Shown here: positions 17,217 through 63,455 of the stretch, piece by piece
Layout: each line of letters begins with the position of its first letter
How positions within the stretch are numbered: the first letter of the stretch is position 1
Source of the DNA: a phage
NCBI GenBank assembly: GCA_025677605.1
Contig: GCA_025677605.1_4110.1
DNA length: 64,000 bases
Strand: one strand, 5' to 3'
Notes under the pieces: model-generated
Databases searched by the model: none
What the model saw: the letters and a program-made list of their open reading frames with translations, nothing else
Told to the model about the DNA's origin: nothing
Position numbers and translations under genes: made by a program

Positions 17217-17228
17217 TTTATACCTCTA

Positions 17229-17537: not shown

Positions 17538-17556
17538 TTTTGTCAAGTCCTTTTGT

Positions 17557-18033: not shown

Positions 18034-18087
18034 GTGTTCTCCGAAAAGAAAAGGACTCGAATATATCAAGTCCTTTATATTATTAGG

Positions 18088-18330: not shown

Positions 18331-18380
18331 AATAGTATCTCCCAAATTGTTAAGAAGAACTTGTTGTTCTTCAATATTAT

Positions 18381-18868: not shown

Positions 18869-18872
18869 ATAA

Positions 18873-19289
18873 CTATCCTTTATTTTTTTGAAACAATTTA
18901 ACAGCTTTAATTATACTGTTACACATTCGTTCGGTCAAATACTTTTGACAATCTTGAACATCAATGTACATGAATTTATCCAATTCTGGATGGCTTTTAC
19001 CATATCGATTGGTATAAGTACTGTTACACTTCAGTTCATCCGGTTCGGGTTTGTATTTAGCTGTATAGAAAAATAAAACTAATCTTTTCCCTTTCCTGTA
19101 TGATACATCACCTAATAAGAGAAGATCCTTTTCATCAATCTCAAATCCTGTTTCTTCATAGCACTCACGAACAGCAGCTTCAGCAAATGTTTCATTGCCC
19201 TCGGTTTTACCTTTTGGTAAATCCCAATGCTTCTGTCCGTGTTGTGTGTCCAACAAGTATCTGACCATCACGATAAAATATAATGCCAC
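18873..19289 (-). CDS. NUDIX hydrolase
   Basis: Canonical Nudix box GKTEGNETFAEAAVRECYEETGF (GX5EX7REUXEEXGU). Confidence 0.8.
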   Translation of the reverse strand: MALYFIVMVRYLLDTQHGQKHWDLPKGKTEGNETFAEAAVRECYEETGFEIDEKDLLLLGDVSYRKGKRLVLFFYTAKYKPEPDELKCNSTYTNRYGKSHPELDKFMYIDVQDCQKYLTERMCNSIIKAVKLFQKNKG

Positions 19290-19341
19290 AACTATAACGC
19301 ATAATCTTATCTCTTAATAGCAATGATGCCCAGATACAATT

Positions 19342-19350
19342 ATTATATCA
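19342..19350 (-). promoter_or_regulatory. extended -10 element TGaTATAAT (no clear -35)
   Basis: Minus-strand TGATATAAT about 50 nt upstream of the NUDIX ATG, in the 86-bp gap after the CCA gene; same 9-mer as the consensus promoters at 3524 and 3617. Confidence 0.3.
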
Positions 19351-19375
19351 GAAGTCGTTCTCTTTTCCCAGAGTT

Positions 19376-20488: not shown

Positions 20489-20624
20489 TCTTATTCTCCC
20501 ATCAACCAATCACGCAGACTTTCCCAGAAGCCTTTTGGCTTGTATTCTGGAACTTGATATTCGTCGGTTCCTTGTTCAGAAACACCCCAATCTTCTTCTA
20601 ACATTGCAATCATAAAGCCTCCAA

Positions 20625-51937: not shown

Positions 51938-52588
51938 TTAAGTTTTGGTCTTAGCTAATGCAATCTGGATTCGTGTAATGAACTCACGCTCAATTTCATC
52001 GGCATTTGTACCTTGGTATTGCGTCTTGAATAGTTCCATAGCTTTAAGTGCCATTTGTACTGAAATGTCAGCAATGCTCTCAGTACTGGAATTGTCAAAT
52101 ACACATTTGAGGCTTAGTTCACCGTCACTTACATCATCTACTAAAATTGGCGTTTTGTTCTGTTCATCAATGTAACGCAACGCTTTGAACTCTGCTTTGG
52201 TTAGATTTTCATACCAACGTGGATGGTTGAACAAATCATACATTGTAACTTTCGCTGATTCCATGAGAAGCAATAGCTCTTCATTTCTGCGAATATGTTT
52301 TTCTTCACCTTTGTGATTTTTGTAAGCATATGCACAACGCATAATGGCTAAACGAACTTCACCTGCTTTGGTGATAGTATATGAATGTGTTGCATTATCA
52401 TAATCACTTTCCCATTGCTGTCCAGCGTATTCATACCAAAGAACATTAGTTTCCCATTTCAGGAAATCAAATTCCAATAAATTATCAATCAACTTAGCCA
52501 TATGACCAACGTATTCTCGGCTAATAATATTGAAAGAACCGTTATGTTTAGCGTGATACAGAATCTTTTCTTGAGTTACATTTTTCAT
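51938..52588 (-). CDS. hypothetical protein (216 aa)
   Basis: ORF in track. Confidence 0.4.
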   Translation of the reverse strand: MKNVTQEKILYHAKHNGSFNIISREYVGHMAKLIDNLLEFDFLKWETNVLWYEYAGQQWESDYDNATHSYTITKAGEVRLAIMRCAYAYKNHKGEEKHIRRNEELLLLMESAKVTMYDLFNHPRWYENLTKAEFKALRYIDEQNKTPILVDDVSDGELSLKCVFDNSSTESIADISVQMALKAMELFKTQYQGTNADEIEREFITRIQIALAKTKT

Positions 52589-52917
52589 TACATGTAATCC
52601 TTGATATATTTTAGAAGTTTAGATTTCTCTTCAGTACTTAATGATTTCTTGTTCATTAAATGTTTCATTTCTTGACGTTCAATTTCTTCGCGACGTTGTG
52701 ATTCTAACTGCAAACGGATATTGTATTCTTCATCCGTTTCTTCTCGTGTCCAAATTACATTGTATCCATCGAAACCGCCGTAACCACCGTCTGGTGAAAG
52801 ACTAATGTGTCCCTTGTACTCTGCACGGTACTTATTAAGAGTGTCAATCAATGTATCAATACAACACTGTTCAATTTCAATATAGCCAATAACTACATCA
52901 ACATCAACTTTGCTCAT
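52588..52917 (-). CDS. hypothetical protein (about 109 aa)
   Basis: Track ORF trimmed to ATG at 52917 to remove the overlap with the upstream gene. Confidence 0.4.
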   Translation of the reverse strand: MSKVDVDVVIGYIEIEQCCIDTLIDTLNKYRAEYKGHISLSPDGGYGGFDGYNVIWTREETDEEYNIRLQLESQRREEIERQEMKHLMNKKSLSTEEKSKLLKYIKDYM

Positions 52918-52945
52918 AACGTTTAACCTATAAAAATAGGGAGCA

Positions 52946-53503
52946 TTAGCTCCCTTTGTATTGTTTTTTACGCTTAGTACTGTATTTCCAGCCAGTACTG
53001 TGTCTTGTTCTAAAATCGTCCCAATATGTCGGTAGTGAACGCATCTTGCGTTTTCCACGAATATCAGGTTCACCATCATCCTTCAGTACTACACACGCCA
53101 TACGACGCTCTTGTTGGGTCTTAGGACGTTTGTAGCGAGAATGGTTATGCTTGTACATGTAAGAGCGTTTGTGTCGCCATTCGGTGTCACGGGCCTTACG
53201 TTTATGTTCCCAGTACTCATTATAGAGAACCATGTATTCACCCATAAGTAAATCAGGCGATACTAATAAACCTTTTTCAGTACAGAGATAATAACCGACA
53301 AACTTTTCAGGATACATTTCGTAATAGAAACGATTTTTCCAGAATGATTCACGATTCTTCTTGTTGAACTCGGATAAATCAAATTTCATTTTGCTGTGAA
53401 ATAGTTCAACCCCTTCGTGGTCAGCAATATATTGTAGAAGATTATCAACAATCTCTACTTTTCCAGAATCATGGTACAACGTAAATGTTTGGTCAAAGAA
53501 CAT
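52946..53503 (-). CDS. hypothetical basic protein (185 aa)
   Basis: ORF in track; K/R-rich C-terminal third. Confidence 0.4.
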   Translation of the reverse strand: MFFDQTFTLYHDSGKVEIVDNLLQYIADHEGVELFHSKMKFDLSEFNKKNRESFWKNRFYYEMYPEKFVGYYLCTEKGLLVSPDLLMGEYMVLYNEYWEHKRKARDTEWRHKRSYMYKHNHSRYKRPKTQQERRMACVVLKDDGEPDIRGKRKMRSLPTYWDDFRTRHSTGWKYSTKRKKQYKGS

Positions 53504-53566
53504 ATTATTTTCTCCATTAAGTTAAAGTTCCTTAATGGAAAGTCATGCGACCTCTGAAAGTATCTT

Positions 53567-54313
53567 TCATACATCCTCCTTGGGGTATAATTTTCTAAAT
53601 TCAGTCATCAGTTTGTTACGAATCGGTTTCGCATAATCAATAACAGCTTGTGCTTTTACATGATAATCACCATATGTTTCATCATATATCTTATAGATGT
53701 TGTCGCGAATGTTCAGCATTTCAAGCACATCAAACTCTTGTTTCATTGACGCAATATTCATTTCATGTTCAGTATTGGATCTGTACAGATTGTAATAATG
53801 CGTAATGATATAGATGAAGTGAATGCTATGCCAGATGTTCTTCAGTCCTAACATCTTATCGTAATCTTCCAGTACTGTCAACTTCTTTTTTCCTTTATTA
53901 AAGGCTTTATCTGATGCAGTACTGCAAATTTTACGAATCTCACTGTTACGGCGTGTCATCATAACCGAACCGATATGACCAAGGTACATCAAAAGATGAT
54001 TTGCACATTTCGGTACAATAGTACCAAAACCGATGGTATAGTATTTAACATCACCACGCATTAATTCGACACGAAGATGATTGAGAGTCATACATTCAAT
54101 ATTGACAGGTATATCAATACAATCTAATTTTACAGAGAACTCACCTTCTTCAAACTCTTCTGGTACTATATTAATAACATCAATATCATTTGGTAATTTG
54201 TCATCATACTTATACAAACAAAAAGTATTCCACGAACCATAGATAAATGGGCATTTATAACCAATTTTGATTAGTTCGGTGATGATTGCTTCGGTTTGTT
54301 TTTCAAGATCCAT
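53567..54313 (-). CDS. hypothetical protein with possible nucleotidyltransferase-like motif (248 aa)
   Basis: N-terminal FIYGSWNTF…DIDV resembles the G[SG]…DxD NTase pattern (weak); GGTGG RBS before ATG at 54313. Confidence 0.4.
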   Translation of the reverse strand: MDLEKQTEAIITELIKIGYKCPFIYGSWNTFCLYKYDDKLPNDIDVINIVPEEFEEGEFSVKLDCIDIPVNIECMTLNHLRVELMRGDVKYYTIGFGTIVPKCANHLLMYLGHIGSVMMTRRNSEIRKICSTASDKAFNKGKKKLTVLEDYDKMLGLKNIWHSIHFIYIITHYYNLYRSNTEHEMNIASMKQEFDVLEMLNIRDNIYKIYDETYGDYHVKAQAVIDYAKPIRNKLMTEFRKLYPKEDV

Positions 54314-54326
54314 AGTTTACCACCAA

Positions 54327-54354
54327 TAAAAAATCCCTGCCAATTGACAGGGAT
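54327..54354 (-). terminator. rho-independent terminator
   Basis: Perfect 7-bp stem ATCCCTG/CAGGGAT with 8-nt loop, followed on the minus strand by UUUUUUAUUGG. Confidence 0.5.
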
Positions 54355-54457
54355 GAAAAACTTACTGAAATAACACATGGAGTTCTTTTTAAATTCATAA
54401 AAAGTATTATTATTCTTATGAAAGTATTTATTAAGAACTCCAAAAAAACGCGTTAAA

Positions 54458-54646
54458 TCAAAAACCTTTTTGTGCAACCAGTTCACGATATTGTGCACGT
54501 GTTAGTACACCTTGCTTACGTAGAGACTGAAGCCCACTTAAAGTTTCAGCTTTACGTAGCTCATAAGTGCGTTGTTCTTTGGATTGAATAACTTTCACTT
54601 TTTTAACTTTAACTTCTGGTTCTTTTTTCTTAGGTTGTTTAGCCAT
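54458..54646 (-). CDS. small basic protein, possible nucleic-acid binding (62 aa)
   Basis: K/R-rich N-terminus (MAKQPKKKEPEVKVKKVKV); RBS GAAGGAAG before ATG at 54646. Confidence 0.45.
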   Translation of the reverse strand: MAKQPKKKEPEVKVKKVKVIQSKEQRTYELRKAETLSGLQSLRKQGVLTRAQYRELVAQKGF

Positions 54647-54714
54647 GATTTACTTCCTTCTTCGATAATGGTGTGTTCATTATAGCAATGAACACATTTA
54701 ATGTCAATAATAGA

Positions 54715-56154
54715 TTACATATTTTCTTCTGCAAACTCTGCAAGTGCAGAACGTACAACACCTTCCAATTCAATGATACGACACCCTTCCCAATCTTTGA
54801 ATTTTTCAGTTACATATGTCAAACCACTATTAACTGGACTAATAAACTTACTATCAATCTGTGCTAAGTTACCCATAATGATAACCTTACAGTTTTGACC
54901 TGCACGGGTAAGAATAGTTTTTGCCTGTGCAGGGGTGATGTTCTGGAATTCATCAACAATTAGAATTGTATTAGTAAAAGAACGACCACGAATAAAGTTC
55001 AATGCTTTAAACTGCATTACGTTACGTTTGAGAATCTCTTCAATGCTACCTTGTGGGTTAGCATCATCTTTGTGTAGATACTCTAGAGCATCGATTGCAG
55101 CCCCACAGAATGGGATGACCTTTTCAGCTTCAGAACCGGGTAAGAAACCAATTTCTTCAAATTGTGAATCTTGTGTTTTGGAGAAGATGATACGATCGTA
55201 TTTACGCTTCTCTAGTACTAATTCGAGTGAAGTAGCAACAGTAATCAATGTTTTACCAGTACCTGCTGAACCAAGTAGTACTGTCAAATGTACATCAGGG
55301 TCAAGAATACTGTTAATTGCTAGTGCCTGTTGAATATTCTTTGCTTTAATATCCCAAACTTTAGCACGAAGAGCGATACTTTGACCAATATCCTGGAATA
55401 CCAAAATATCTTCAGGTGTTAGTGAACCGTCTTCTTCTTCGATAGCAGATTGACCTTCGTATACGAATAGTACATCAGCATTATCATATAGATAATCACC
55501 AATACATAGATTATCTGGAAGAACATCTTGAATCAATGCGGTTGGAATATAGTGATATAGACGGCGACCTTCTTGTTGGGATTTAATTTCAGCATTGTTA
55601 ACTTCACTGAATGTTTTCCAGAAATCAATATCAAGGTGGTGCTGCCCAATATGAATCAACTCACTATCTTCGATTGCAACGTCATGACGGTAATCTTGTA
55701 CCTCAACACCGTAGCTCATTGCTTTGATACGCATGTTAATGTCGCGAGTTACCAGTACTGATTGTGATGCCAAAGCCACTAGAATGATTTTGTCATCTGG
55801 TACAGTACTTTTAAGTAGAGTTTCTACTTTATCTTCACTGCCGCCCATACGAATAAGTGCTTCAGCTTCTTCATTCGTCATAACGAATAGCTTACTGGAT
55901 GCATCCATATTTTTGTGGATATTGGCAATATTAACACCAGTACTGCTGATTTCTTCATGAGTAGCATCTTTCAAAATTGCATCGATGTTACGGATTGCGA
56001 AACGTGCATCACGTGATACGTCAACATTACGGCTCTTGATTGAATCAAGTTCTTCAAGAACAGTGAATGGTAGAATCACTGCTGCCCCATCAAATGCTAC
56101 GGTTGCATTTGGATCGGATAGTAGTACGTTTGTGTCAATTGTGTATTTTTTCAT
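54715..56154 (-). CDS. phoH: PhoH-like ATPase with N-terminal PIN domain (PhoH2-type)
   Basis: N-terminal PIN-like segment (YTIDTNVLLSDPNA…), Walker A GSAGTGKT, Walker B ILIVDEFQN; ATG at 56154 with AAGGA RBS (the track start at 56178 is GTG). Confidence 0.8.
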   Translation of the reverse strand: MKKYTIDTNVLLSDPNATVAFDGAAVILPFTVLEELDSIKSRNVDVSRDARFAIRNIDAILKDATHEEISSTGVNIANIHKNMDASSKLFVMTNEEAEALIRMGGSEDKVETLLKSTVPDDKIILVALASQSVLVTRDINMRIKAMSYGVEVQDYRHDVAIEDSELIHIGQHHLDIDFWKTFSEVNNAEIKSQQEGRRLYHYIPTALIQDVLPDNLCIGDYLYDNADVLFVYEGQSAIEEEDGSLTPEDILVFQDIGQSIALRAKVWDIKAKNIQQALAINSILDPDVHLTVLLGSAGTGKTLITVATSLELVLEKRKYDRIIFSKTQDSQFEEIGFLPGSEAEKVIPFCGAAIDALEYLHKDDANPQGSIEEILKRNVMQFKALNFIRGRSFTNTILIVDEFQNITPAQAKTILTRAGQNCKVIIMGNLAQIDSKFISPVNSGLTYVTEKFKDWEGCRIIELEGVVRSALAEFAEENM

Positions 56155-56218
56155 AAAACATCCTTGAGTTATGAGCACATCCTTGTGCTCTACGGTAGAT
56201 TATAGACTCAGACACTTC

Positions 56219-56518
56219 TTATTGTGGCTCATAGTCAACGTAGCAGCGGTGACCGCGAGCCTTTTCTGTCCAGCATTCATTGTAAACAATTTGCCCAACT
56301 GAAACTGGTTTCCTTGATGCTCCATACTTAATAGACCCATCTTCAGTCTTATAAGTAAATGAACATGTATTTTCTTCACACTGCCCTATGTCAGTAACAA
56401 CAGCAGTACGGTAGTATATATCTCTGTGTTTGGTTTGATCTTGATGATAAAAGAACCAAAACCCAATAAGAAATATAATACTTGTGATTATAAAGCTTTG
56501 TATATGATGTTTTGTCAA
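56219..56518 (-). CDS. small membrane protein (99 aa)
   Basis: N-terminal TM helix (FIITSIIFLIGFWFFY), Cys-rich C-terminal part. Confidence 0.4.
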   Translation of the reverse strand: MTKHHIQSFIITSIIFLIGFWFFYHQDQTKHRDIYYRTAVVTDIGQCEENTCSFTYKTEDGSIKYGASRKPVSVGQIVYNECWTEKARGHRCYVDYEPQ

Positions 56519-56847
56519 TTGTCCCCTCTCAAAAATCTAAAACCATTCTGTAAGTACGTGTCAATGTTGACCTTCCCTACAGGATTACTGCTATGGATGA
56601 TATAATCGAATTCAGTACTGATATTGTTTTCGACCATATAATCAATTAGAAATTTTGCAAATGAATACCCTGTCTTTTCATCCTCCCCAACATCACCTAA
56701 GTCATGATCGAAGCTAATAAATTGTGGTAAACCATGTTCATTTACATAAGCACATGCACTTTCATAATCACGACATAAAACCATGTTTTGATTTGGATAA
56801 TACTTTTCAGGATCACGAATATCATCCAGAAACATTGAGTAAGACAT
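56515..56847 (-). CDS. hypothetical protein with FLDDIRDP and FDHDLGD motifs (110 aa)
   Basis: ORF in track; co-transcribed immediately downstream of the NUDIX-like and SIR2 genes. Confidence 0.4.
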   Translation of the reverse strand: MSYSMFLDDIRDPEKYYPNQNMVLCRDYESACAYVNEHGLPQFISFDHDLGDVGEDEKTGYSFAKFLIDYMVENNISTEFDYIIHSSNPVGKVNIDTYLQNGFRFLRGDN

Positions 56848-56858
56848 TATAATTCACC

Positions 56859-57407
56859 TTATAAGTAACTAATCAGTAAATTCTCGGATTGAACAAGATG
56901 TTCTAATTCCATTTTAGCAGTTCCTATGAAGTTTTGTGTCATAAGATTATTATATCCTGCTTCTCGGTTTTGTCCCTTTGAATAACGAGAAATGTGACAT
57001 AAATTAACACCAGCCACTTCTGCACTTGCATGTTTAGCAGTACTGTATCCATCGCGAATCGCTTTCAATTCTTCGTAAGTAACTTCATAACTATAGCTAT
57101 GGGTATGTGCTCCTAGATATAGTTCGTAAGTTTTCAATGGTTTCAATTGTTCGATGAAAATATTATAATTCATCTCTTCCTGAATTTCACGGAATAGTGC
57201 ATCTTCTAAGGTGGCATCGGTATCTTCGACTGTTCCACCACAACCACCCAGTAAACCATCCCAACGAAGCTGGAGTAATACCAGATTCACAACAGGGATA
57301 TCATTTAATTCATAACCTTTATATGGGTTACAATTTCGAGCAAAGAAGTAACAGAATACAAAGTTTGCTCGTTTACCATACTCACCTAGAGGTACTTCTC
57401 GAATCAT
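56859..57407 (-). CDS. NUDIX-like hydrolase (degenerate Nudix box)
   Basis: Segment GGCGGTVEDTDATLEDALFREIQEEM contains the REUxEE core with non-canonical spacing and no trailing Gly; ATG overlaps the SIR2 stop (ATGA). Confidence 0.5.
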   Translation of the reverse strand: MIREVPLGEYGKRANFVFCYFFARNCNPYKGYELNDIPVVNLVLLQLRWDGLLGGCGGTVEDTDATLEDALFREIQEEMNYNIFIEQLKPLKTYELYLGAHTHSYSYEVTYEELKAIRDGYSTAKHASAEVAGVNLCHISRYSKGQNREAGYNNLMTQNFIGTAKMELEHLVQSENLLISYL

Positions 57408-58156
57408 TTCATTCTATCCTTAATGATAGTTTCCAGTACTGGAATCGCTTTTGTAGCTGGTTTTATAATTTTTTCATTGAACATGAAATCGTTATCATTT
57501 TTTCTGATGTTGATATTAATACTAAAGCATGGCAAACAAGCAACCAGATGTGACCATTTCAGTACTGTGTCACTGCTACCAATGACTACAACTGTATCAT
57601 CTTCTGTTAAGGATTGCAATACTAAATTACGCTCATCGTATATTGGGAGTTTTTCACCATCAACATAACGATAATATTCACCAATGAACACTACGTTTGG
57701 TTTCGCAAAGACACCTTCTTTCGGAATGTACGGTTCATAACCACAATCCACAATACTATAATCGTCACCACCAATTGTAAAATTCTCAATAACTTCTTTT
57801 AAATTACCATGTAACTTTAATTCATTGCCACCAATACGAGTATAGAGATCATCCATATTCGAAGTCATATGTAAAAAGTTATCACCGTATGTATCTTCTA
57901 GAGATTTGATATAATAATGCATATCATTAGGAACACAATCTTTCATTTTAACACGTAATGTGTTATAGAAAGTATGCACTAAATGGTACTTAGTACTAAG
58001 ACGTGCAATGTTACATACATCATTTATTTGAAATTGATCCCATAGGCCATCGTCCATGCGAAACGGTTCCATCCCACTTTCAACGGATAGACCTGCACCG
58101 GAAATAACCAATACACGTTTATTACCTTTATTTTTTATAAAAGAGTCAGAAATCAT
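57404..58156 (-). CDS. SIR2-family (sirtuin-like) NAD-dependent protein
   Basis: Sirtuin catalytic motifs in order: GAGLSVESGMEPFR, TSNMDDL (NID-like), LHG (catalytic His), GSSDTV; no zinc-ribbon cysteines seen; 250 aa. Confidence 0.7.
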   Translation of the reverse strand: MISDSFIKNKGNKRVLVISGAGLSVESGMEPFRMDDGLWDQFQINDVCNIARLSTKYHLVHTFYNTLRVKMKDCVPNDMHYYIKSLEDTYGDNFLHMTSNMDDLYTRIGGNELKLHGNLKEVIENFTIGGDDYSIVDCGYEPYIPKEGVFAKPNVVFIGEYYRYVDGEKLPIYDERNLVLQSLTEDDTVVVIGSSDTVLKWSHLVACLPCFSININIRKNDNDFMFNEKIIKPATKAIPVLETIIKDRMK

Positions 58157-58365
58157 AGCTTACCTACTGTACCTAATGAACTCAAATCGTATACAAATAA
58201 GATACACACAACCGAGATGACAATGTGATATATCATCCATCCATTGAATTTCTCTTTGTTTTTGATAATTTTATATATACATTTAATATTATTGTACGCT
58301 ACAACTGCTAGAAATACAACAACAAAATAAACAAAGCATAGTGAAAAGTAATTGATAGTTATCAT
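58153..58365 (-). CDS. small membrane protein (70 aa)
   Basis: Two predicted TM helices; ATGA overlap with the SIR2 start. Confidence 0.4.
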   Translation of the reverse strand: MITINYFSLCFVYFVVVFLAVVAYNNIKCIYKIIKNKEKFNGWMIYHIVISVVCILFVYDLSSLGTVGKL

Positions 58366-58425
58366 AGTTATAATACTCTCCTTATTAAATTAATATAGGG
58401 GATTATAAGAATCCCCTTTTTTGTA

Positions 58426-59028
58426 TTACAGCTTAGGATAGCTTAGTAAATCATACTCAGCACTAACGCTGGTAACATTATCACTTACAATTTTGAAGAT
58501 AGAATCGGTGCGATCAACCATCTTAACACCTGTTTCTTTTTGAACTTCAATATATGCTTGCATAGCTGCAATTGCATGATATGTACCACTACCAACAGAT
58601 GTAATTTGTGTCTTAGGTTGGAGTACTGAAAAATCCTCTTGAACTTCATAAATTGTATGATTATGAAGAATAATAAACTGTCCACCACCAACGTCTTGAG
58701 TTGTATCACGAGCACCCCATTCTTCTTTAAATAGTGTGCGAATACGTGGGATTACCTCAAGTACTAAGTACTGTGAGAATGTTTGGTTTGATTGCTGTTC
58801 AGGTAAATCAAGTTTATACGTCAGCAATTGTCCCATGCGGAAGCTCGACGTGTATCCCATTGCCATAACTTCTTTGGTGCGATTCAATCCACTTTCATCG
58901 ATTTTGATGAATTCTTTTTCAAACACTTTTGGTTCAGTTTGAATTGCTTTAGTGAAACCATTACTACCCAGTTTGTCACCCGCGATAAAAGATGTGTTAC
59001 CATCAGTGTAAGCAATAATACAAGTCAT
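58426..59028 (-). CDS. Ntn-hydrolase, proteasome beta/HslV-like peptidase
   Basis: Thr at position 2 (MTCIIAYTDGNTSFIAGDK) and later SVGSGTYHAIAAMQA follow the HslV/proteasome-beta pattern; GGAG RBS. Confidence 0.5.
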   Translation of the reverse strand: MTCIIAYTDGNTSFIAGDKLGSNGFTKAIQTEPKVFEKEFIKIDESGLNRTKEVMAMGYTSSFRMGQLLTYKLDLPEQQSNQTFSQYLVLEVIPRIRTLFKEEWGARDTTQDVGGGQFIILHNHTIYEVQEDFSVLQPKTQITSVGSGTYHAIAAMQAYIEVQKETGVKMVDRTDSIFKIVSDNVTSVSAEYDLLSYPKL

Positions 59029-59039
59029 TGATATCTCCG

Positions 59040-59336
59040 TTATAAAAGATGCATTACATCTAAGATTGTGTACATGAAATACAATAGTAAACCCAAAATT
59101 ATGAGTAAAATTGTATACGAAATTTTAAAGAAATAATAAAAGTACTTTTCAGTTTTAGAAGAAAACTCACCATTTTCTTCAAGAAAACCACTCTTGAAAT
59201 CACTTGCCATAATCACTGATAAAAGAACAATGATTCCATATGTAACTATAGTAGCATAGAAGATGAACTCTGTCCAGCCTTGAAGATGTGATAATTCTGT
59301 CATTTTTTGTTTCCTTGGTTGATAATGTACAACCAT
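59040..59336 (-). CDS. small membrane protein (98 aa)
   Basis: Two to three predicted TM helices. Confidence 0.4.
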   Translation of the reverse strand: MVVHYQPRKQKMTELSHLQGWTEFIFYATIVTYGIIVLLSVIMASDFKSGFLEENGEFSSKTEKYFYYFFKISYTILLIILGLLLYFMYTILDVMHLL

Positions 59337-59430
59337 TATATCTTAAAATCGGGTGGCAGTACACCACCCTTAACCAAAATCATGAATTAGTATTAGGATT
59401 ATATCATTGCTTCATAAAAAATACAACTTT

Positions 59431-60036
59431 TTATTGAATGATTCCCCATTTAACGAGATCTGATCTTCGTAATACAACGATATCCTCACCATGTTTAGTA
59501 CTGATATCAATGAGTGTTTCAGCGGGGATACCGTTATGTGCGTACAGTGTAAAAAGATACCCAACTTTAGTTGAGACTTGATGTGTAAACTCCATCAACT
59601 GTCTAACTGAAACGAATGTCGTATCTGGATCTGCACCATTCGTAGATACTAGTGAGATGTTATGTAAACCCATCACTGCGGTATCACTCATATCCCTACG
59701 TTCAGATGATGCAGAGAAAAAAACCAGACTACAAGACGAATTACATTGCTTTGGGACATAAACAGTTAACTTTTTAGCAGCCACAAAAAATCCCAAATCT
59801 AATCCTGCATCAAAATCTCCACCAGGTGATGTTATTGTTATAATTTTAAATCTTGTTTCTTTCCACAACTTCTTCACTTCTTGTACAGTTTCATCATTTA
59901 GTTCACCATCAATTGACACAACATGTTCATTTAATAGAAAAACAGATGATTTTTTTGAAACTTCTGCCGCTGCCGGAAAGTTTAATGCAGCGATTAAAAC
60001 AACGGTTTGTACAATCTCTTTCAAGATTCGTTTCAT
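59431..60036 (-). CDS. exported ClpP/S49-like serine peptidase
   Basis: Signal peptide (…LIAALNFPAAA-EV) then ClpP-like ITITSPGGDFDAGLDLGFF block; GAGG RBS before ATG at 60036. Confidence 0.5.
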   Translation of the reverse strand: MKRILKEIVQTVVLIAALNFPAAAEVSKKSSVFLLNEHVVSIDGELNDETVQEVKKLWKETRFKIITITSPGGDFDAGLDLGFFVAAKKLTVYVPKQCNSSCSLVFFSASSERRDMSDTAVMGLHNISLVSTNGADPDTTFVSVRQLMEFTHQVSTKVGYLFTLYAHNGIPAETLIDISTKHGEDIVVLRRSDLVKWGIIQ

Positions 60037-60164
60037 TGATTACCTCGGATTTGAGTTAAGGAACATAAATAATAGTACAATAATTGATCAATTATGTCAA
60101 GTGCAAAACTGAACAATTATGACTGTAGTATCAAGTGTTTTTGTTAAGTTCATTGATTTACCAA

Positions 60165-60193
60165 TTGACCATTTGAACTATGGTATCATATTG
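60165..60193 (+). promoter_or_regulatory. candidate promoter for the plus-strand island (TTGACC-N16-CATATT)
   Basis: Good -35 but weak -10, in the divergent intergenic region; low confidence. Confidence 0.25.
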
Positions 60194-60234
60194 GGAGGCA
60201 GTTTACAATCCCATTTTTAAGGTAAGGAGATGTT

Positions 60235-60750
60235 ATGAAACCAATAGCTGGCTTAGATCAATTTCCATTTGTTATAGGTGGATTGCAGGTTACTGCTGCA
60301 AAGATAGAAGGGCAAGTATTTGTTAAAGAATTGTATGTTATAAAACAAAGAACATTCGATTCATATGATTTAATATCTGAAAATTTCAAGATTTACAAAG
60401 ATATAAAAATCACAGGTAGAAATAAAGATAAATCAACATTGTTGTATGATGATGACGATGCTGAAATTGCTAAATCTTTAGCAAATAATACATTTTGCAT
60501 AAAAGAAGCTGATGCTATTAATAATAAGTATGGTTTTGGTATTCAATATCAAAGTAATAAAATAAAATTACATAATGGTGAAATAATTTTCAGAAGAACG
60601 AACGTGGAGCCAAATTCGTTGTCTAAAGTTATAATAAAGCCAGATGATTTTGTTCTTTATTCAAATGATAAAATGCAATTCACTGCTTACTTCTCTCCGA
60701 AAGATTGGCCTGACCAAACCAGATTTCCACCGTATGCTCGTTTCCAATAA
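60235..60750 (+). CDS. hypothetical protein, paralogue 1 of the plus-strand island (171 aa)
   Basis: RBS AAGGAG 6 nt before ATG; N-terminal approximately 130 aa paralogous to 60855-63023 and 63081-63455; followed by a terminator. Confidence 0.55.
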   Translation: MKPIAGLDQFPFVIGGLQVTAAKIEGQVFVKELYVIKQRTFDSYDLISENFKIYKDIKITGRNKDKSTLLYDDDDAEIAKSLANNTFCIKEADAINNKYGFGIQYQSNKIKLHNGEIIFRRTNVEPNSLSKVIIKPDDFVLYSNDKMQFTAYFSPKDWPDQTRFPPYARFQ

Positions 60751-60761
60751 CTTTATATTTT

Positions 60762-60788
60762 AAGGAGTCTTCGGACTCCTTTTTTTAA
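60762..60788 (+). terminator. rho-independent terminator
   Basis: Perfect 8-bp stem AAGGAGTC/GACTCCTT with TTCG loop followed by TTTTTTT. Confidence 0.7.
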
Positions 60789-60811
60789 TCCTAAAATACT
60801 TTTGGTATAAT
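60783..60811 (+). promoter_or_regulatory. extended -10 promoter (TTTTAA-N17-TGgTATAAT)
   Basis: TGgTATAAT at 60803-60811, about 40 nt upstream of the ATG at 60855. Confidence 0.4.
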
Positions 60812-60854
60812 ATAAATAATATAACACTACAATACAATTTATAAAGGAAAGTAT

Positions 60855-63023
60855 ATGAAAGCAATATCTAGTGAAGGTAAATTGCCTTTTGGTATTGGTG
60901 GTATTAAAGTTTCTGTCGCTAAAATCGATGGTAAGGTGTTAACCGAAACTTTATATATTAACCGTCAACGTTCCGGTAACGTGTATGATCTCATCAATGA
61001 TAATGGTGATATCTATTACAAAGTTTCCATGCGTTGGTATGATACTCGTGGTATCGACATTCCAAATTCTGTTGAACCAGCAGACGCAATTAATATGGTT
61101 CAAGACAATTCATTCATGATCTATGTTGATGATGGTATTAGCATGGGATATACTATGCTTTATATGGGTCGTGTTATTAAATTAAATAATGGTCGCATCG
61201 TAAAACGCGATTATGTTAATGCTGATATCCCCGTAACTGGTGTTGTAATTACACCCAAAGATGCATCTCTTAAAGTTGGTGCAACAAAACAACTATCAGC
61301 CCAAGTAGTTCCATCTAATGCAAAAGACAAGGCAGTAACCTACTCTTCATCTGCTCCTACAATCGTTGAAGTTGATGCTCAAACAGGTCTAGCAACTGCA
61401 CTTGCAAATGGCAATGCTGATGTAACCGTAACAACTCACGATGGTGATTTCACAGATGTGTGTTCTATCGTTGTCAGTACTGGTGTTACAGGTGTTACTG
61501 TTTCTCCTAAAACTGCAACGGTGAATGTTGGAGAAACTCAACAATTGTTAGCTGAAGTTTCTCCTGCATCTGCAACTGATAAGAAAGTTACATGGGCTTC
61601 ATCTGCTCCATCCGTTGCAACAGTTGATAAAGATTCTGGGTTGGTAACAGGTGTATCCAATGGTGATGTTACTATTACTGCAACAACTGAAGATGGTTCA
61701 TTGACTGATACTTCTTCTATTAAAGTTCAAACAGCAGTAACTGGTGTTACGTTAACACCTGAAACATATACATTCACTACTATTGGTGCAAATGAACCAT
61801 TAACAGCAACGGTACTACCAAGAACTGCATCAAATCAGGAAGTTCGTTATGAATCTTCTGCACCTACAGTAGCAGAAGTTGATGATGACGGTTTAGTAAC
61901 TTCTGTTAATAATGGTACTGCCACTATTACCGTAACAACTATTGATGGTGAAAAAACCGCACAATCAATTATTGATGTGACGATCCCAGTAACTGGTATT
62001 AACCTAACACCTGCAACCGCTTCATTAACTTCTGTTGGTGCAACACAGCAATTAACTGCAACTGTTCTACCAGCTAATGCTCGTAACAAAGCAGTAACAT
62101 ACGCAACTTCTGCTGCTGGTGTTGCAACCGTTAGTACAAGTGGTTTAATCACTGCGGTAGCGAATGGCACTGCTAATATCACGGCTACTACTGCTGATGG
62201 TGGCTTTAGTAAAGTTTGTGCAGTAACTGTAGCAATTCCAGTTCCAGTAACAACTATTAATGTTACTCCAGCAACTAAAACATTGACTGCTGTTAACGCA
62301 ACTCAAGCAATGGCTGCTGAAGTTCTTCCAGCTAACGCAACTAATAAAGCTGTAACATGGTCTTCTAGTGCACCTGCTGTAGCGAAAGTTGATGCTAGTA
62401 CTGGTGTTGTAACTGCGTTAACTAACGGTACTGCAAACATTATCGCAACTGCCGCTGATGGAAGTGGTAAAACAGGTCAAGGTGTCATTACTGTGTCAAT
62501 CCCAGTTCCTGTAGCTAGTGTTTCTGTTTCTCCAACAACAGCAACATTAACATCTGTTGGTGCAACTCAACAACTAACACCAACTGTACTACCAGCTAAT
62601 GCTACTAACAAAGCAGTAACTTATAGTACTTCTGCTGCTGGGGTCGCAACTGTTAGTGCAAGTGGTTTAATCACTGCTGTTGCAAACGGTACTGCTGATA
62701 TCACTGTAAAAACTACTGATGGTGCAAAAACTGCAAAATGTGCTGTAACTGTTAATATTCCAGTACCAGTATCCAGCGTTGGTTTAACACCTAAAGCCAC
62801 TGATCTTTCACTATCAGGTACTAAAACAGTTCAACTAGTTCCAGAAGTTCTTCCAGCTAACGCAACTAACAAATCAGTAACTTATAGTGCAGATGAACCT
62901 ACTAAAGTATCTATTAGTGATGATGGATTAGTAACTGCTCTAGAAGAAGGTACTGTAGTCATTACAGTGACTACTGTGAATGGCAATAAAACTGATACTG
63001 CAACTGTAACAATCAGTGCTTAA
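60855..63023 (+). CDS. Ig-like (Big_2) repeat protein with paralogue N-terminal domain (722 aa)
   Basis: N-terminal approximately 130 aa paralogous to neighbours; then about seven tandem approximately 80-aa repeats with the Big_2-type pattern (VTGVTVSP…VTWSSSAP.VATVD..GLVT.V.NG.A.ITATT.DG); RBS AAGGAAA. Confidence 0.7.
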   Translation: MKAISSEGKLPFGIGGIKVSVAKIDGKVLTETLYINRQRSGNVYDLINDNGDIYYKVSMRWYDTRGIDIPNSVEPADAINMVQDNSFMIYVDDGISMGYTMLYMGRVIKLNNGRIVKRDYVNADIPVTGVVITPKDASLKVGATKQLSAQVVPSNAKDKAVTYSSSAPTIVEVDAQTGLATALANGNADVTVTTHDGDFTDVCSIVVSTGVTGVTVSPKTATVNVGETQQLLAEVSPASATDKKVTWASSAPSVATVDKDSGLVTGVSNGDVTITATTEDGSLTDTSSIKVQTAVTGVTLTPETYTFTTIGANEPLTATVLPRTASNQEVRYESSAPTVAEVDDDGLVTSVNNGTATITVTTIDGEKTAQSIIDVTIPVTGINLTPATASLTSVGATQQLTATVLPANARNKAVTYATSAAGVATVSTSGLITAVANGTANITATTADGGFSKVCAVTVAIPVPVTTINVTPATKTLTAVNATQAMAAEVLPANATNKAVTWSSSAPAVAKVDASTGVVTALTNGTANIIATAADGSGKTGQGVITVSIPVPVASVSVSPTTATLTSVGATQQLTPTVLPANATNKAVTYSTSAAGVATVSASGLITAVANGTADITVKTTDGAKTAKCAVTVNIPVPVSSVGLTPKATDLSLSGTKTVQLVPEVLPANATNKSVTYSADEPTKVSISDDGLVTALEEGTVVITVTTVNGNKTDTATVTISA
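61230..62990 (+). repeat. tandem coding repeats (approximately 240-bp period) encoding the Big_2 Ig-like domains
   Basis: Reiterated Ig-like domain units within CDS 60855-63023; copies are diverged, not identical. Confidence 0.6.
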
Positions 63024-63037: not shown

Positions 63038-63059
63038 GTGCATGAAAATTATCATGCAC
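63038..63059 (+). promoter_or_regulatory. inverted repeat (GTGCATGA-N6-TCATGCAC) between paralogues 2 and 3
   Basis: Perfect 8-bp inverted repeat in the 57-bp intergenic spacer; possible operator or RNA hairpin. Confidence 0.3.
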
Positions 63060-63080
63060 TTTACTTGGAGAAGTATAATA

Positions 63081-63455
63081 ATGGGTAAACCAATTGCATT
63101 AACCGGAAGACTTCCTTTTTCTATTAATGGTATCGAAATTACTGGTGCTAAAATTAATGGAGCAGCTATTCTTGGTAAACTATATATTTTAAAACAACGT
63201 TCAGCACATACTTATGATCTAATCGATGAAAGCGGTAAGGTTTATGAATATGTTCAGATGGTGTATAGAAATAAAGATTCATATATCATGAATTTCGAAG
63301 ATTCAGATGAAAGCCTTGTAGAAAGCCTAAGAGATAATACTTTCTTCATTAAATTGAAAGATGAAGAAGCAGGTATTGAAGGGTTTTGCACTATGTACAT
63401 GATTCACAAAATTAAATTACATAATGGACAATACATCCTACGTAAAAAAGCATAA
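63081..63455 (+). CDS. hypothetical protein, paralogue 3 of the plus-strand island (about 124 aa)
   Basis: ATG at 63081 with GGAGAAG RBS; paralogous to the N-terminal domains of 60235-60750 and 60855-63023. Confidence 0.5.
   Translation: MGKPIALTGRLPFSINGIEITGAKINGAAILGKLYILKQRSAHTYDLIDESGKVYEYVQMVYRNKDSYIMNFEDSDESLVESLRDNTFFIKLKDEEAGIEGFCTMYMIHKIKLHNGQYILRKKA

What the first reader, a model, noticed from the sequence alone, without database searches (positions are those of the whole stretch)
54715..60036. Long minus-strand operon of tightly coupled accessory genes (ClpP-like to PIN-PhoH)
From 60036 down to 54715, nine ORFs are packed with 4-bp ATGA overlaps or gaps of 12 nt or less, with no terminator hairpin until 54327-54354. 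The set is an exported peptidase, two small membrane proteins, an Ntn hydrolase, SIR2, a NUDIX-like protein, a 110-aa protein with FLDDIRDP/FDHDLGD motifs, another membrane protein and PIN-PhoH. This looks like a single host-takeover or anti-defence cassette rather than structural or replication genes.
Basis: inference. Interest (0 to 1): 0.55.

Follow-up and report, generated by a model that had tools for sequence, protein, structure and literature searches.

The report
Phage sirtuin–Nudix–cREC–PhoH gene block
This stretch of a jumbo E. coli phage is a co-oriented run of accessory genes: its conserved five-gene core is an already-described but untested NAD-consuming RNA-processing module, and lineage-specific protease and membrane genes sit upstream of it, so it is not one nine-gene cassette.

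Summary
The window is an Asteriusvirus jumbo phage, 98.8% identical to Escherichia phage A4. The 110-aa protein is a cREC domain (PF20274).

The packing claim holds for only five of eight junctions. The other gaps are 94-127, 60 and 40-64 nt, and the block is no tighter than its neighbours.

Comparison of 90 sirtuin loci splits the block:
- **Conserved core.** SIR2, NUDT16-like Nudix, cREC, a small exported Cys-rich protein and PIN-PhoH keep the same order in all 21 Rak2-like jumbo-phage loci. Nudix and cREC are fused in some.
- **Variable upstream part.** The ClpP-like protein, the HslV-like peptidase and two small membrane proteins are lineage-specific. In relatives this slot holds NAD-salvage genes and a 2H phosphoesterase, which Asteriusvirus lacks.

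Iyer et al. 2022 already described the core neighbourhood in silico as an NAD-dependent RNA-repair system. I found no experimental test of it.

A conserved sigma70-like promoter precedes the first gene. A conserved promoter follows PhoH, and the terminator lies after one further small gene. Published proteomics found the PhoH orthologue in phAPEC6 virions.

Verdict: a real, composite, known kind of module, of moderate interest.

The parts
60072..60100 (-). Promoter-like site upstream of the first gene: TTGACA-17-TACTAT, with a 16-bp perfect palindrome ATAATTGATCAATTAT in the spacer
   Evidence: scores it 10 of 12. The TTGAC...TAyTAT elements are conserved in all six Asteriusvirus loci aligned. 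The palindrome was seen.
59431..60036 (-). g1, 201 aa: secreted ClpP/NfeD-superfamily serine-peptidase-like protein (SPGG motif, a C-x-S-x-C motif around the putative catalytic Ser100, and His125)
   Evidence: Direct hits to ClpP are weak (Pfam E = 0.031, NCBIfam 0.002, PDB profile 0.06). Invariant residues are listed. A profile search found 1,728 relatives; of 60 sampled, 10 match CLP_protease (best E = 9e-8) and 7 match NfeD1b_N. The N-terminal hydrophobic segment ends in AAA-E. The AlphaFold2 model is poor (pLDDT 48).
59040..59303 (-). g2, about 87 aa (98 aa if it starts at 59336): small protein with two transmembrane-like segments; fast-evolving
   Evidence: It is 38% identical to its PBECO4-type counterparts. 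No family match.
58426..59028 (-). g3, 200 aa: HslV/proteasome-beta-like Ntn threonine peptidase with no propeptide
   Evidence: PHROG 'peptidase HslV family', E = 3.6e-21. Thr2, Asp18, Lys34 and Gly146/Gly148 (the glycines of the VGSGT motif) are invariant in 26 homologues. The profile hits HslV structures at E = 2e-9 and also proteasome beta subunits and BPH.
58397..58417 (-). Hairpin AGGGGATT-CTTAT-AATCCCCT in the 60-nt gap; weak terminator-like element present only in A4-type phages
   Evidence: It is absent from the four PBECO4-type loci.
58153..58365 (-). g4, 70 aa: small protein with two transmembrane-like segments; ATGA overlap with SIR2
   Evidence: A divergent 64-aa counterpart occupies the same position in PBECO4-type phages.
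57404..58156 (-). g5, 250 aa: phage-clade sirtuin. It keeps the NAD-binding motifs and the catalytic Asn100 and His116, but has no zinc-binding cysteines.
   Evidence: Pfam SIR2, E = 1.9e-19. The closest solved structures are CobB, Sir2-Af and SIRT5, matching mainly over the N-terminal 110 residues. Invariant residues and the missing Cys4 are shown across seven divergent phage sirtuins. It matches no PADLOC defence SIR2 model.
56859..57407 (-). g6, 182 aa: NUDT16/X29-like Nudix hydrolase with an intact R-E-x2-E-E motif; ATGA overlap with SIR2
   Evidence: Pfam Nudt16-like, E = 5.5e-19. PDB matches to NUDT16 and X29, E = 3e-13. Invariant Nudix-box residues in 19 orthologues.
56515..56847 (-). 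g7, 110 aa: cREC (cyclic-phosphate processing receiver-like) domain protein
56219..56518 (-). g8, 99 aa: N-terminal membrane anchor plus a roughly 65-aa domain with four invariant cysteines. Probably faces the periplasm. TTG start overlapping the cREC stop codon.
   Evidence: PHROG 14661 'membrane protein'. The alignment shows the GQC...C...ECW...CY pattern and a lipobox-like VSSC in three lineages. It is present between cREC and PIN-PhoH in all 21 Rak2-like loci.
56173..56190 (-). Hairpin GAGCAC-AAGGAT-GTGCTC in the gap before PIN-PhoH. One base pair is changed on both sides in PBECO4-type phages (GAGTAC/GTACTC).
54715..56154 (-). g9, 479 aa: PIN-PhoH (PhoH2-type RNase plus RNA helicase ATPase)
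   Evidence: PIN_4 E = 1.2e-21 and PhoH E = 1e-43. NCBIfam 'RNA 5'-3' helicase PhoH2', E = 1.4e-47 but below its cut-off. Three PIN acidic positions (D9, D130, D147 in L023 numbering) and Walker A and B are conserved in at least 95% of 18 orthologues. The phAPEC6 orthologue gp341c was detected in virions.
54673..54707 (-). Perfect sigma70 consensus with an extended -10 (TTGACA-17-TGcTATAAT), overlapping a 9-bp inverted repeat; promoter for the next small gene
   Evidence: scores it 12 of 12; it is one of four perfect sites in the 64-kb window. The -10 element and the presence of an inverted repeat (of different sequence) are conserved in the other Asteriusvirus loci.
54458..54646 (-). g10, 62 aa: very basic small protein (pI 10.4). 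It is the last gene before the terminator.
   Evidence: PHROG 24119, function unknown. Conserved LR..G[VI]LTR.Q[FY]R motif. pI.
54333..54442 (-). Structured, highly conserved 3' untranslated region (long hairpin with arms at 54378-54394 and 54426-54442), followed by the intrinsic terminator at 54354..54333
   Evidence: Fold energy -42.5 kcal/mol, z = -6.2. No Rfam family matches.

Best explanation
**Architecture (shown).** The nine ORFs are a composite stretch of sigma70-driven accessory genes in an Asteriusvirus jumbo phage. They are not one functional cassette.

- **Conserved core, 57404-58156 down to 54715-56154.** It contains a zinc-less phage-clade sirtuin, a NUDT16-like Nudix hydrolase, a cREC receiver-fold protein, a small exported Cys-rich protein and PIN-PhoH. 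This core is inherited as a block in all Rak2-like jumbo phages examined.
- **Variable upstream part.** It contains a secreted ClpP/NfeD-like protein, an HslV-like Ntn peptidase and two small membrane proteins. This part is lineage-specific. It occupies the slot where relatives carry NAD-salvage genes (NMNAT plus NAMPT) and a 2H cyclic phosphodiesterase.

**Mechanism (inferred, following Iyer et al. 2022).** The core is an NAD-consuming system for processing and healing RNA ends. It would act after host metal-independent RNases such as anticodon nucleases or HEPN toxins cut tRNA or mRNA.

1. cREC, helped in relatives by 2H, opens or removes 2',3'-cyclic or terminal phosphates through its receiver-type aspartate pocket.
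2. The sirtuin uses NAD to ADP-ribosylate and so remove the remaining 2'-phosphate, as Tpt1/KptA does. This releases nicotinamide and an ADP-ribose phosphate derivative.
3. The Nudix hydrolase, together with cREC, destroys that derivative or an RNA-linked ADP-ribose intermediate.
4. PIN-PhoH unwinds and trims RNA, or degrades RNA that cannot be repaired. It may be delivered with the virion.

The envelope-targeted proteins and the two peptidases are most likely co-transcribed passengers with separate functions.
For: **Conserved order.**
- The five-gene order is identical in 21 of 21 Rak2-like loci spanning Asteriusvirus, GAP32/CBB/BF-type, Yersinia and Erwinia phages.
- Nudix and cREC are fused into one roughly 300-aa protein in the GAP32/CBB/BF type.
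- 2H lies directly upstream of the sirtuin in 15 non-Asteriusvirus loci, with NMNAT and NAMPT next to it.

**Recurrent partners in other phage groups.**
- In unrelated V5-like phages the same sirtuin clade sits in the order phosphoesterase, T4-type RNA ligase, cREC, kinase, sirtuin.
- Unbiased clustering of genes within ±4 kb of the sirtuin ranks NAMPT (4 sirtuin lineages), PhoH (3) and cREC/Nudix (3) as the most recurrent neighbours.
- One cREC gene in another phage lies within 5 kb of RtcB.

**Intact catalytic residues.**
- Sirtuin: GAG..ESG motif, Asn100 and His116.
- Nudix: R-E-x2-E-E.
- cREC: receiver fold with conserved D8, D9, D47 and S86.
- PIN-PhoH: PIN acidic residues and Walker A and B.

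**Other support.**
- The whole sirtuin clade lacks the zinc-binding Cys4 of deacylases. It matches no defence NADase model.
- The neighbourhood and this hypothesis are published (PMC9503650 section 3.7.3; PMC7824862).
- The PhoH orthologue was found in phAPEC6 virions. The CBB paper says the same of RaK2 (PMC7247149, PMC5259590).
- The window also encodes a CCA-adding enzyme and a second Nudix hydrolase.
Against: - None of these proteins has been tested biochemically, as far as four literature searches could find.
- Most of the conserved order comes from one vertically related phage clade. Order alone is therefore weak evidence of shared function. The periplasm-facing Cys-rich protein embedded in the core shows that unrelated genes can ride along.
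- The 64-kb window has no RNA ligase, polynucleotide kinase, 2H, NAMPT or NMNAT. In Asteriusvirus the pathway would need host enzymes or genes located elsewhere in the genome.
- PIN nucleases are metal-dependent and leave 3'-OH ends (established knowledge), so PIN-PhoH does not generate the substrate.
- All four enzymes are acidic (pI 4.4-5.3). As I recall, Tpt1/KptA is basic.
- The sirtuin's N-terminal half closely resembles the deacylase CobB.
- T5-like phages carry the sirtuin without cREC or Nudix. cREC also occurs without a sirtuin nearby.
Confidence: 0.45

Rival explanations
1. **Host-takeover module acting on proteins.** The sirtuin is a CobB-like NAD-dependent lysine deacylase or protein ADP-ribosyltransferase that re-programmes host or phage proteins. 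Nudix and cREC merely dispose of O-acyl-ADP-ribose or ADP-ribose. PIN-PhoH independently degrades host mRNA.
For: - All sequence-level matches of the sirtuin are to deacylases: CobB, Sir2-Af and SIRT5, E = 2e-21, and NCBIfam deacylase models.
- The V-V-x-x-G-E region and the catalytic His are kept.
- Nudix hydrolases are known to degrade O-acetyl-ADP-ribose (established knowledge).
- Adjacency to NAMPT fits any NAD-consuming sirtuin with high turnover.
- T5-like phages carry the sirtuin alone.
Against: - The whole clade lacks the zinc-ribbon cysteines found in all characterised deacylases.
- Scores are far below every NCBIfam cut-off (91.8 against 318).
- The Nudix hydrolase is of the NUDT16/X29 type, not the ADP-ribose pyrophosphatase type.
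- Recurrent partners are RNA-end enzymes: 2H, RNA ligase, kinase and phosphoesterase.
Confidence: 0.2
2. **Counter-signalling module.** cREC and Nudix degrade host immune nucleotides, such as cyclic ADP-ribose isomers from TIR/Thoeris systems or cyclic nucleotides with cyclic phosphates. The sirtuin modulates the NAD and ADP-ribose pools.
For: - Iyer et al. 2021 first proposed cREC as an enzyme that processes cyclic ADP-ribose or 2',3'-cyclic nucleotides (PMC7824862).
- The Nudix-cREC fusion implies consecutive action on one small molecule.
- NAD-salvage genes, known to counter NAD-depleting defences (abstract of bioRxiv 10.1101/2024.02.11.579819, listed), lie beside the module in relatives.
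Against: - An NAD-consuming sirtuin would work against NAD preservation.
- The association with PhoH and RNA ligase is left unexplained.
- The Asteriusvirus loci examined have no NAD-salvage genes at or near the module, and no close NAMPT orthologue appears among the top 40 phage matches.
Confidence: 0.12
3. **No shared function.** The block is a run of independent accessory genes that are co-oriented and tightly packed because the whole genome arm is. The conserved order reflects common descent only.
For: - Packing is no tighter than in neighbouring genes.
- Genes downstream of the block (248 aa, 185 aa) are equally syntenic in GAP32 and Hallingskeid.
- An exported protein is embedded in the core.
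- Only PhoH was detected in virions, which suggests its fate differs from that of its neighbours.
Against: - Nudix and cREC are fused in some lineages.
- The sirtuin-cREC pairing recurs in unrelated V5-like phages, and the sirtuin-PhoH pairing recurs in T5-like and other lineages.
- Translational coupling (ATGA and TTGA overlaps) links four junction partners.
Confidence: 0.15

Closest known systems
Sirtuin-centred predicted RNA-repair neighbourhood, type 1 (Serratia phage BF; Iyer, Burroughs, Anantharaman and Aravind 2022, Viruses 14:1977, section 3.7.3)
   Same: The same sirtuin clade is linked to Nudix, cREC and a PIN endoRNase in Rak2-like jumbo phages. Serratia phage BF itself is among the loci compared here (357,154-bp contig, L016) and shows the same gene order.
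   Different: The Asteriusvirus version lacks the 2H gene and the adjacent NAD-salvage genes. Its Nudix and cREC are separate proteins. HslV-like, ClpP-like and small membrane genes lie upstream. As far as the passages I read show, the paper does not discuss the embedded Cys-rich exported protein or the virion association of PhoH.
Tpt1/KptA, 2H cyclic phosphodiesterase and Macro pathway (removal of the 2'-phosphate after tRNA ligation)
   Same: [quoted passage not shown]
   Different: None of the enzymes is homologous. A sirtuin stands in for an ART-fold enzyme, cREC for 2H, and Nudix for Macro. The activity is untested.
Phage T4 polynucleotide kinase plus RNA ligase 1, which repairs tRNA cut by the PrrC anticodon nuclease
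   Same: A phage counter-defence that heals RNA ends carrying 2',3'-cyclic phosphates.
   Different: The window has no kinase or ligase. The chemistry proposed here depends on NAD.
CobB, SIRT5 and Sir2-Af class III/U sirtuin deacylases
   Same: Strong similarity over the N-terminal 110 residues. The NAD-binding motifs, Asn and the catalytic His are conserved.
   Different: There are no zinc-binding cysteines. The C-terminal half is divergent. Scores are far below the NCBIfam CobB cut-offs.
PhoH2 (PIN-PhoH) RNA helicase/RNase of mycobacteria
   Same: The same two-domain architecture, with Walker A and B and the PIN acidic residues conserved.
   Different: It is phage-encoded, scores below the equivalog cut-off (162.7 against 680), and its orthologue is found in virions.
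NUDT16 / X29 RNA-decapping and de-ADP-ribosylating Nudix hydrolases
   Same: They are the best PDB and Pfam matches, and the Nudix box has the same spacing.
   Different: The phage protein's substrate is unknown. In relatives it is fused to cREC.
HslV, bacterial proteasome homologue (BPH) and Anbu Ntn peptidases
   Same: Thr1, Asp17, Lys33 and the two glycines of the G-S-G motif are conserved, and the profile matches HslV.
   Different: There is no HslU-like partner in the block. An invariant Cys follows the nucleophile. An insertion is present relative to distant homologues. Scores are below the HslV equivalog cut-off.

Membership tests
Sirtuin (SIR2, PF02146) | Profile match above the curated cut-off; Rossmann GAGxS motif; conserved Asn and catalytic His | tested here: met
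   70.8 bits against a cut-off of 24. GAGLS, N100 and H116 are invariant across seven divergent phage sirtuins.
Sirtuin lysine deacylase (CobB equivalog) | Cys4 zinc-ribbon module, and a score above the NCBIfam equivalog cut-off | tested here: not met
   No Cys4 in any clade member. Best NCBIfam score is 91.8 bits against a cut-off of 318.
Defence-type SIR2 NADases (ThsA, DSR, SIR2-HerA and others) | Match to a PADLOC SIR2 model | tested here: not met
   No PADLOC family at E <= 0.01.
Tpt1/KptA-like RNA 2'-phosphotransferase (functional analogue) | [quoted passage not shown] | not testable with these tools
   This needs an enzyme assay. Only contextual evidence is available.
Nudix hydrolase, Nudt16-like (PF22327) | Profile match above the cut-off, and a Nudix box with R-E-x2-E-E | tested here: met
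   69.1 bits against a cut-off of 27. R73, E74, E77 and E78 are conserved in 19 orthologues.
cREC (PF20274) | Profile match above the cut-off; receiver-like fold; conserved aspartate pair plus an aspartate at the end of strand 3 | tested here: met
cREC (PF20274) | Cyclic-phosphate phosphodiesterase activity | not testable with these tools
   The literature predicts this activity but has not demonstrated it (PMC9503650).
PhoH2 (PIN-PhoH) | N-terminal PIN domain with acidic catalytic residues, plus a C-terminal PhoH P-loop ATPase | tested here: met
   PIN_4 77.8 bits and PhoH 149.7 bits, both above their cut-offs. Three PIN acidic positions and GxxGTGK and DE are conserved. The NCBIfam PhoH2 equivalog cut-off is not reached.
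HslV / proteasome-beta Ntn peptidases | N-terminal Thr nucleophile, Asp17, Lys33 and the G-S-G motif; profile similarity | tested here: met
   T2, D18, K34, G146 and G148 are invariant. HslV structures match at E = 2e-9. PHROG match at 3.6e-21. This places the protein in the superfamily, not as an HslV orthologue (NCBIfam 20 bits against a cut-off of 137).
ClpP / NfeD serine peptidases | Profile match above the cut-off; Ser-His(-Asp) catalytic residues in a ClpP fold | tested here: inconclusive
   Direct matches are below the cut-offs. The SPGG motif, S100 and H125 align with ClpP and are invariant. Distant relatives match CLP_protease (10 of 60) and NfeD1b_N (7 of 60). The structure model is too poor to use.
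Iyer et al. type-1 sirtuin neighbourhood | Sirtuin linked to Nudix, cREC and a PIN endoRNase | tested here: met
Iyer et al. type-1 sirtuin neighbourhood | A linked 2H phosphoesterase | tested here: not met
   A 2H profile built from 16 phage homologues finds nothing in the 64-kb window. No Asteriusvirus appears among the top 40 tblastn matches.
Single operon | One transcript running from one promoter to one terminator | not testable with these tools
   Only consensus-level signals are available: a conserved upstream promoter-like site, no conserved internal terminator, a conserved promoter after PhoH, and a terminator at 54333-54354.

The most novel reading that the evidence does not exclude
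The zinc-less phage sirtuin is a non-homologous replacement for Tpt1/KptA. It would remove RNA 2'-phosphates with NAD, working with cREC (a receiver-fold, aspartate-based phosphoesterase of a new catalytic class) and a NUDT16-like Nudix hydrolase that clears RNA-linked or free ADP-ribose phosphates. PIN-PhoH2 would be delivered in the virion. Together they would form a new NAD-dependent RNA-healing pathway that lets jumbo phages escape host anticodon nucleases and other RNA-cleaving defences.
Probability: 0.25. Interest if true: 0.75.

Novelty: new member of a known kind. Interest (0 to 1): 0.4.

Why it matters
The core module combines three enzyme families whose phage versions have never been assayed: a zinc-less sirtuin, cREC, and a NUDT16-like Nudix hydrolase. 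It also includes a PIN-PhoH protein that proteomics places in the virion.

If the predicted chemistry is right, it would be a second, independently evolved way to remove RNA 2'-phosphates with NAD. It would also be a new phage counter-measure against RNA-cleaving defences.

E. coli phages such as A4, PBECO4 and phAPEC6 carry a minimal version without 2H or NAD-salvage genes. That makes them a convenient genetic system for the test.

For genome annotation the practical lesson is that the nine-gene run should not be treated as one cassette.

Tried and rejected
- **Related loci from a single protein.** A search with the sirtuin alone returned one locus. An alignment-based search was needed.
- **PDB sequence searches with single proteins.** These found nothing for the HslV-like protein, the ClpP-like protein or cREC. 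Profiles or structure prediction were needed.
- **AlphaFold2 model of the ClpP-like protein.** It was built from 13 sequences and was too poor to use (pLDDT 48), so I ran no fold search on it.
- **Rfam scan of 53500-60300.** It returned only one sub-threshold chance match.
- **tRNA search.** The window has no tRNA genes.
- **Late promoter for PIN-PhoH.** I looked for a T4-late-type promoter (TATAAATA) that could explain the virion-associated PhoH. There is none on the minus strand in 53000-61000.
- **Operator test.** I tested whether the palindrome at the promoter after PhoH recurs as an operator elsewhere. It is unique in the window.
- **A4-type internal signals.** The A4-type extended -10 (59398-59403) and the hairpin at 58397-58417 are not conserved in PBECO4-type phages. 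I do not count them as firm internal signals.
- **Experimental literature.** Four searches for experimental work on phage sirtuins or cREC found only the two comparative-genomics papers.
- **Defence system carried by the phage.** I considered and rejected this reading. The sirtuin matches no PADLOC model, and only weak P-loop matches appear for PhoH.
- **Not done.** I did not scan the whole Asteriusvirus genome for RNA ligase or kinase genes.

Full report
**Identity of the window.** The region 54300-60200 is 98.8% identical over its full length to Escherichia phage A4 (ON286972, 355 kb, genus Asteriusvirus). It is 76-81% identical over parts of its length to PBECO4-type phages. The window is AT-rich (GC 0.32-0.40) and almost all of its genes lie on the minus strand.

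**Checking the observation.** The nine minus-strand ORFs exist as described.

- The junctions, in order of transcription, are 94 nt, 11 nt, 60 nt, a 4-bp ATGA overlap, a 4-bp ATGA overlap, 11 nt, a 4-bp TTGA overlap (TTG start) and 40 nt.
- Two starts are probably later than the longest ORF suggests. The second gene more likely starts at 59303 (an AAGGA site lies upstream, and homology to PBECO4-type proteins begins there). PIN-PhoH more likely starts at 56154 (AAGGA site; A4 annotation). With these starts the gaps become 127 and 64 nt.
- 'Overlaps or gaps of 12 nt or less' therefore holds for five of eight junctions.
- The 13 junctions downstream of the block in the A4 annotation have gaps of -11 to 144 nt with a similar median. 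The packing is typical of this genome arm, not special to the block.
- The consensus scan found 43 promoter-like sites against 35.9 ± 6.6 expected, and 7 terminator-like sites against 2.7 ± 1.6 expected.

**What the proteins are.** Coordinates for each gene are in the parts list.

| Gene | Size | Assignment | Main evidence |
|---|---|---|---|
| g1 | 201 aa | Secreted ClpP/NfeD-superfamily peptidase-like protein | Signal-peptide-like N-terminus. Direct ClpP/NfeD matches are weak (E = 0.002-0.06). The SPGG motif, a C-x-S-x-C motif around the putative catalytic Ser100, and His125 are invariant and align with the ClpP catalytic positions. |
| g2, g4 | about 87 and 70 aa | Small membrane proteins | Two transmembrane-like segments each |
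| g3 | 200 aa | HslV/proteasome-beta-like Ntn peptidase | T2, D18, K34 and G146/G148 (in the VGSGT motif) invariant in 26 homologues. The profile hits HslV at 2e-9. |
| g5 | 250 aa | Sirtuin | E = 1.9e-19; details below |
| g6 | 182 aa | NUDT16/X29-like Nudix hydrolase | Intact catalytic glutamates |
| g7 | 110 aa | cREC domain | E = 1.8e-22; details below |
| g8 | 99 aa | Membrane-anchored Cys-rich protein | Details below |
| g9 | 479 aa | PIN-PhoH (PhoH2-type) | Conserved PIN acidic residues and Walker motifs |

- **g1.** A full profile search found 1,728 relatives. Of 60 sampled, 10 match CLP_protease (best E = 9e-8) and 7 match NfeD1b_N. The structure model was unusable (pLDDT 48). I accept membership of the ClpP superfamily but regard peptidase activity as unproven.
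- **g5.** Its N-terminal 110 residues closely resemble CobB. No member of this phage clade has the zinc-binding cysteines. It scores far below the CobB equivalog cut-offs and matches no defence-type SIR2 model.
- **g8.** It has an N-terminal anchor and four invariant cysteines, and three lineages have a lipobox-like VSSC. Its C-terminal domain therefore probably faces the periplasm.

**Does the block move as a unit?** No. I compared annotated loci from A4, PBECO4, UE-S1, SD-1_S14, GAP32, Erwinia phage Hallingskeid, T5, a V5-like Klebsiella phage and a Vibrio phage. I added 80 IMG/VR loci found with a sirtuin alignment. Iterated profile searches over all ORFs gave the following picture.

- The order sirtuin, Nudix, cREC, Cys-rich protein, PIN-PhoH is present in all 21 Rak2-like loci.
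- Nudix and cREC are fused in the GAP32/CBB/BF type.
- A 2H phosphoesterase lies directly upstream of the sirtuin, and NMNAT plus NAMPT lie next to it, in all 15 non-Asteriusvirus loci.
- The six Asteriusvirus loci have none of these three. Profile searches find no 2H, NAMPT, NMNAT, T4-type RNA ligase, kinase or calcineurin-type phosphoesterase anywhere in the 64-kb window. No Asteriusvirus appears among the top 40 NAMPT or 2H matches.
- The ClpP-like gene occurs only in Asteriusvirus and in Hallingskeid. In Hallingskeid it lies 5 kb away, on the far side of the NAD-salvage genes.
- The HslV-like gene occurs only in Asteriusvirus and in one other lineage, where it sits between NAMPT and 2H.
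- Outside the Rak2-like clade, V5-like phages have the order phosphoesterase, RNA ligase, cREC, kinase, sirtuin, with a NAMPT-family gene about 6 kb away. T5-like phages have the sirtuin about 3 kb from a PIN-less PhoH.
- Unbiased clustering of all neighbours within ±4 kb ranks NAMPT, PhoH and cREC/Nudix as the partners seen in the most sirtuin lineages.
- cREC also occurs without a sirtuin nearby. In one such case it lies within 5 kb of RtcB.

**Transcription signals.**

- A TTGAC-17-TAyTAT site upstream of g1 is conserved in all six Asteriusvirus loci.
- Strong sigma70-like sites are 46 on the coding strand against 13 on the other strand across the window. This fits host-polymerase-driven transcription of this arm.
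- The candidate internal signals are A4-specific: an extended -10 at 59398-59403 and a hairpin at 58397-58417.
- Directly after the PhoH stop codon lies one of only four perfect TTGACA-17-TATAAT sites in the window. Its extended -10 is conserved across Asteriusvirus. It drives a 62-aa basic protein.
- The terminator follows at 54354..54333, after a highly conserved, strongly structured 3' untranslated region.
- A single long transcript is plausible but not demonstrated.

**Published context.**

- Iyer et al. 2021 defined cREC.
- Iyer et al. [quoted passage not shown] They proposed that the sirtuin acts like KptA in removing 2'-phosphates during RNA repair.
- I found no experimental test of that proposal.
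- Virion mass spectrometry of phAPEC6 detected gp341c, a 'PhoH-like protein' of 53.21 kDa, with 8 peptides and 30.9% coverage. None of its neighbours was detected. gp341c is the positional orthologue of g9, whose calculated mass is 53.36 kDa.
- The CBB paper notes PhoH among proteins found in RaK2 virions.

**Most likely explanation.**

- *Shown:* the composite architecture, the intact catalytic motifs and the recurrent partners.
- *Inferred:* the core is an NAD-consuming RNA-end processing and healing module used against host RNA-cleaving defences. cREC would act as the phosphoesterase. The sirtuin would be the NAD-dependent phosphate-removing transferase. Nudix would dispose of the ADP-ribose derivative. 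PIN-PhoH would be an RNA helicase/RNase that may enter the cell with the virion.
- *Weak points:* the enzymes are untested; most of the synteny comes from one clade; the window has no ligase, kinase or 2H; the proteins are acidic; PIN chemistry leaves 3'-OH ends; and the sirtuin's N-terminal half resembles CobB.

The rivals are protein deacylation for host takeover, degradation of immune nucleotides, and plain co-location without shared function. The peptidases and the envelope-targeted proteins are best treated as separate functions.

**Verdict.** It is a new member (a minimal variant lacking 2H and NAD-salvage genes) of a published but experimentally untested kind of phage module. Interest is moderate.

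Noticed in passing
window 54333-54457: The 144-nt non-coding stretch after the 62-aa gene is roughly 95% conserved across six Asteriusvirus loci by eye, which is better than the flanking coding DNA. It folds into a long hairpin (-42.5 kcal/mol, z = -6.2) followed by the terminator. No Rfam family matches. It could be a structured 3' untranslated region or a small RNA.
   Followed up: partly
window 54673-54707: A perfect sigma70 promoter with an extended -10 overlaps a 9-bp perfect inverted repeat (GTGTTCATT/AATGAACAC). PBECO4-type phages keep the -10 element and also have a 9-bp inverted repeat at this spot, but of a different sequence (GTATGGGAC/GTCCCATAC). So structure is conserved rather than sequence. 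The repeat is unique in the window.
   Followed up: partly
window 56173-56190: A hairpin GAGCAC-AAGGAT-GTGCTC lies in the gap before PIN-PhoH. In PBECO4-type phages one base pair is changed on both sides. Its loop repeats the CAAGGATGT sequence that also precedes the PhoH start codon.
   Followed up: no
window 60080-60095: A 16-bp perfect palindrome, ATAATTGATCAATTAT, fills the spacer of the promoter-like site upstream of the first gene. It looks like an operator.
   Followed up: no
window 54715-56154; phAPEC6 gp341c (L093 5890-7329): Published virion mass spectrometry detected the PIN-PhoH orthologue in phAPEC6 particles (8 peptides, 30.9% coverage), but not the sirtuin, Nudix, cREC or peptidase neighbours. 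The CBB paper says PhoH was also seen in RaK2 virions. No late-type promoter was found upstream of the gene.
   Followed up: partly
window 16839-20509: A second RNA- and NAD-related cluster lies about 35 kb away. It contains a CCA-adding/poly(A) polymerase family nucleotidyltransferase (19376-20509), a second Nudix hydrolase resembling the Nudix domain of NMNAT-Nudix (18873-19289) and a glutaredoxin (18620-18868). There is also a weak PTH2-like match below the Pfam cut-off (16839-17216). A macro-domain protein is annotated in the corresponding part of PBECO4.
   Followed up: partly
window 53567-54313: A 248-aa protein just downstream of the terminator carries a GS...DxD-like motif (IYGSWNTF...NDIDVI) that suggests a minimal nucleotidyltransferase. 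It is syntenic in GAP32 and Hallingskeid but absent from PBECO4-type phages. Its only Pfam match is a faint one to DUF6932.
   Followed up: no
window 60235-60750, 60855-63023, 63042-63455 (plus strand): Three plus-strand ORFs appear, by eye, to share a similar N-terminal domain of about 60 aa or more (...LPF.IGG..V..AKI.G...LY...QR....YDLI...). The 722-aa one continues with what look like repeated Ig-like units, and it has a T4-late-type TATAAATA at 60811 upstream. The phAPEC6 counterpart in this position, gp347, is a virion protein (75% coverage).
   Followed up: no
L004, L005, L008, L056, L084, L085 (related loci): Phage sirtuins of this clade repeatedly sit beside NAD-reconstitution genes. 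In several lineages these are NMNAT plus NAMPT. In V5-like phages they are a NAMPT-family gene with a ribose-phosphate pyrophosphokinase-like gene. This suggests a sirtuin-NAD recycling couple that Asteriusvirus has lost or never had.
   Followed up: partly
window 52588-53503: Two long minus-strand ORFs overlap by 134 nt (52588-53079 and 52946-53503). The A4 annotation uses a shorter start for the downstream one.
   Followed up: no
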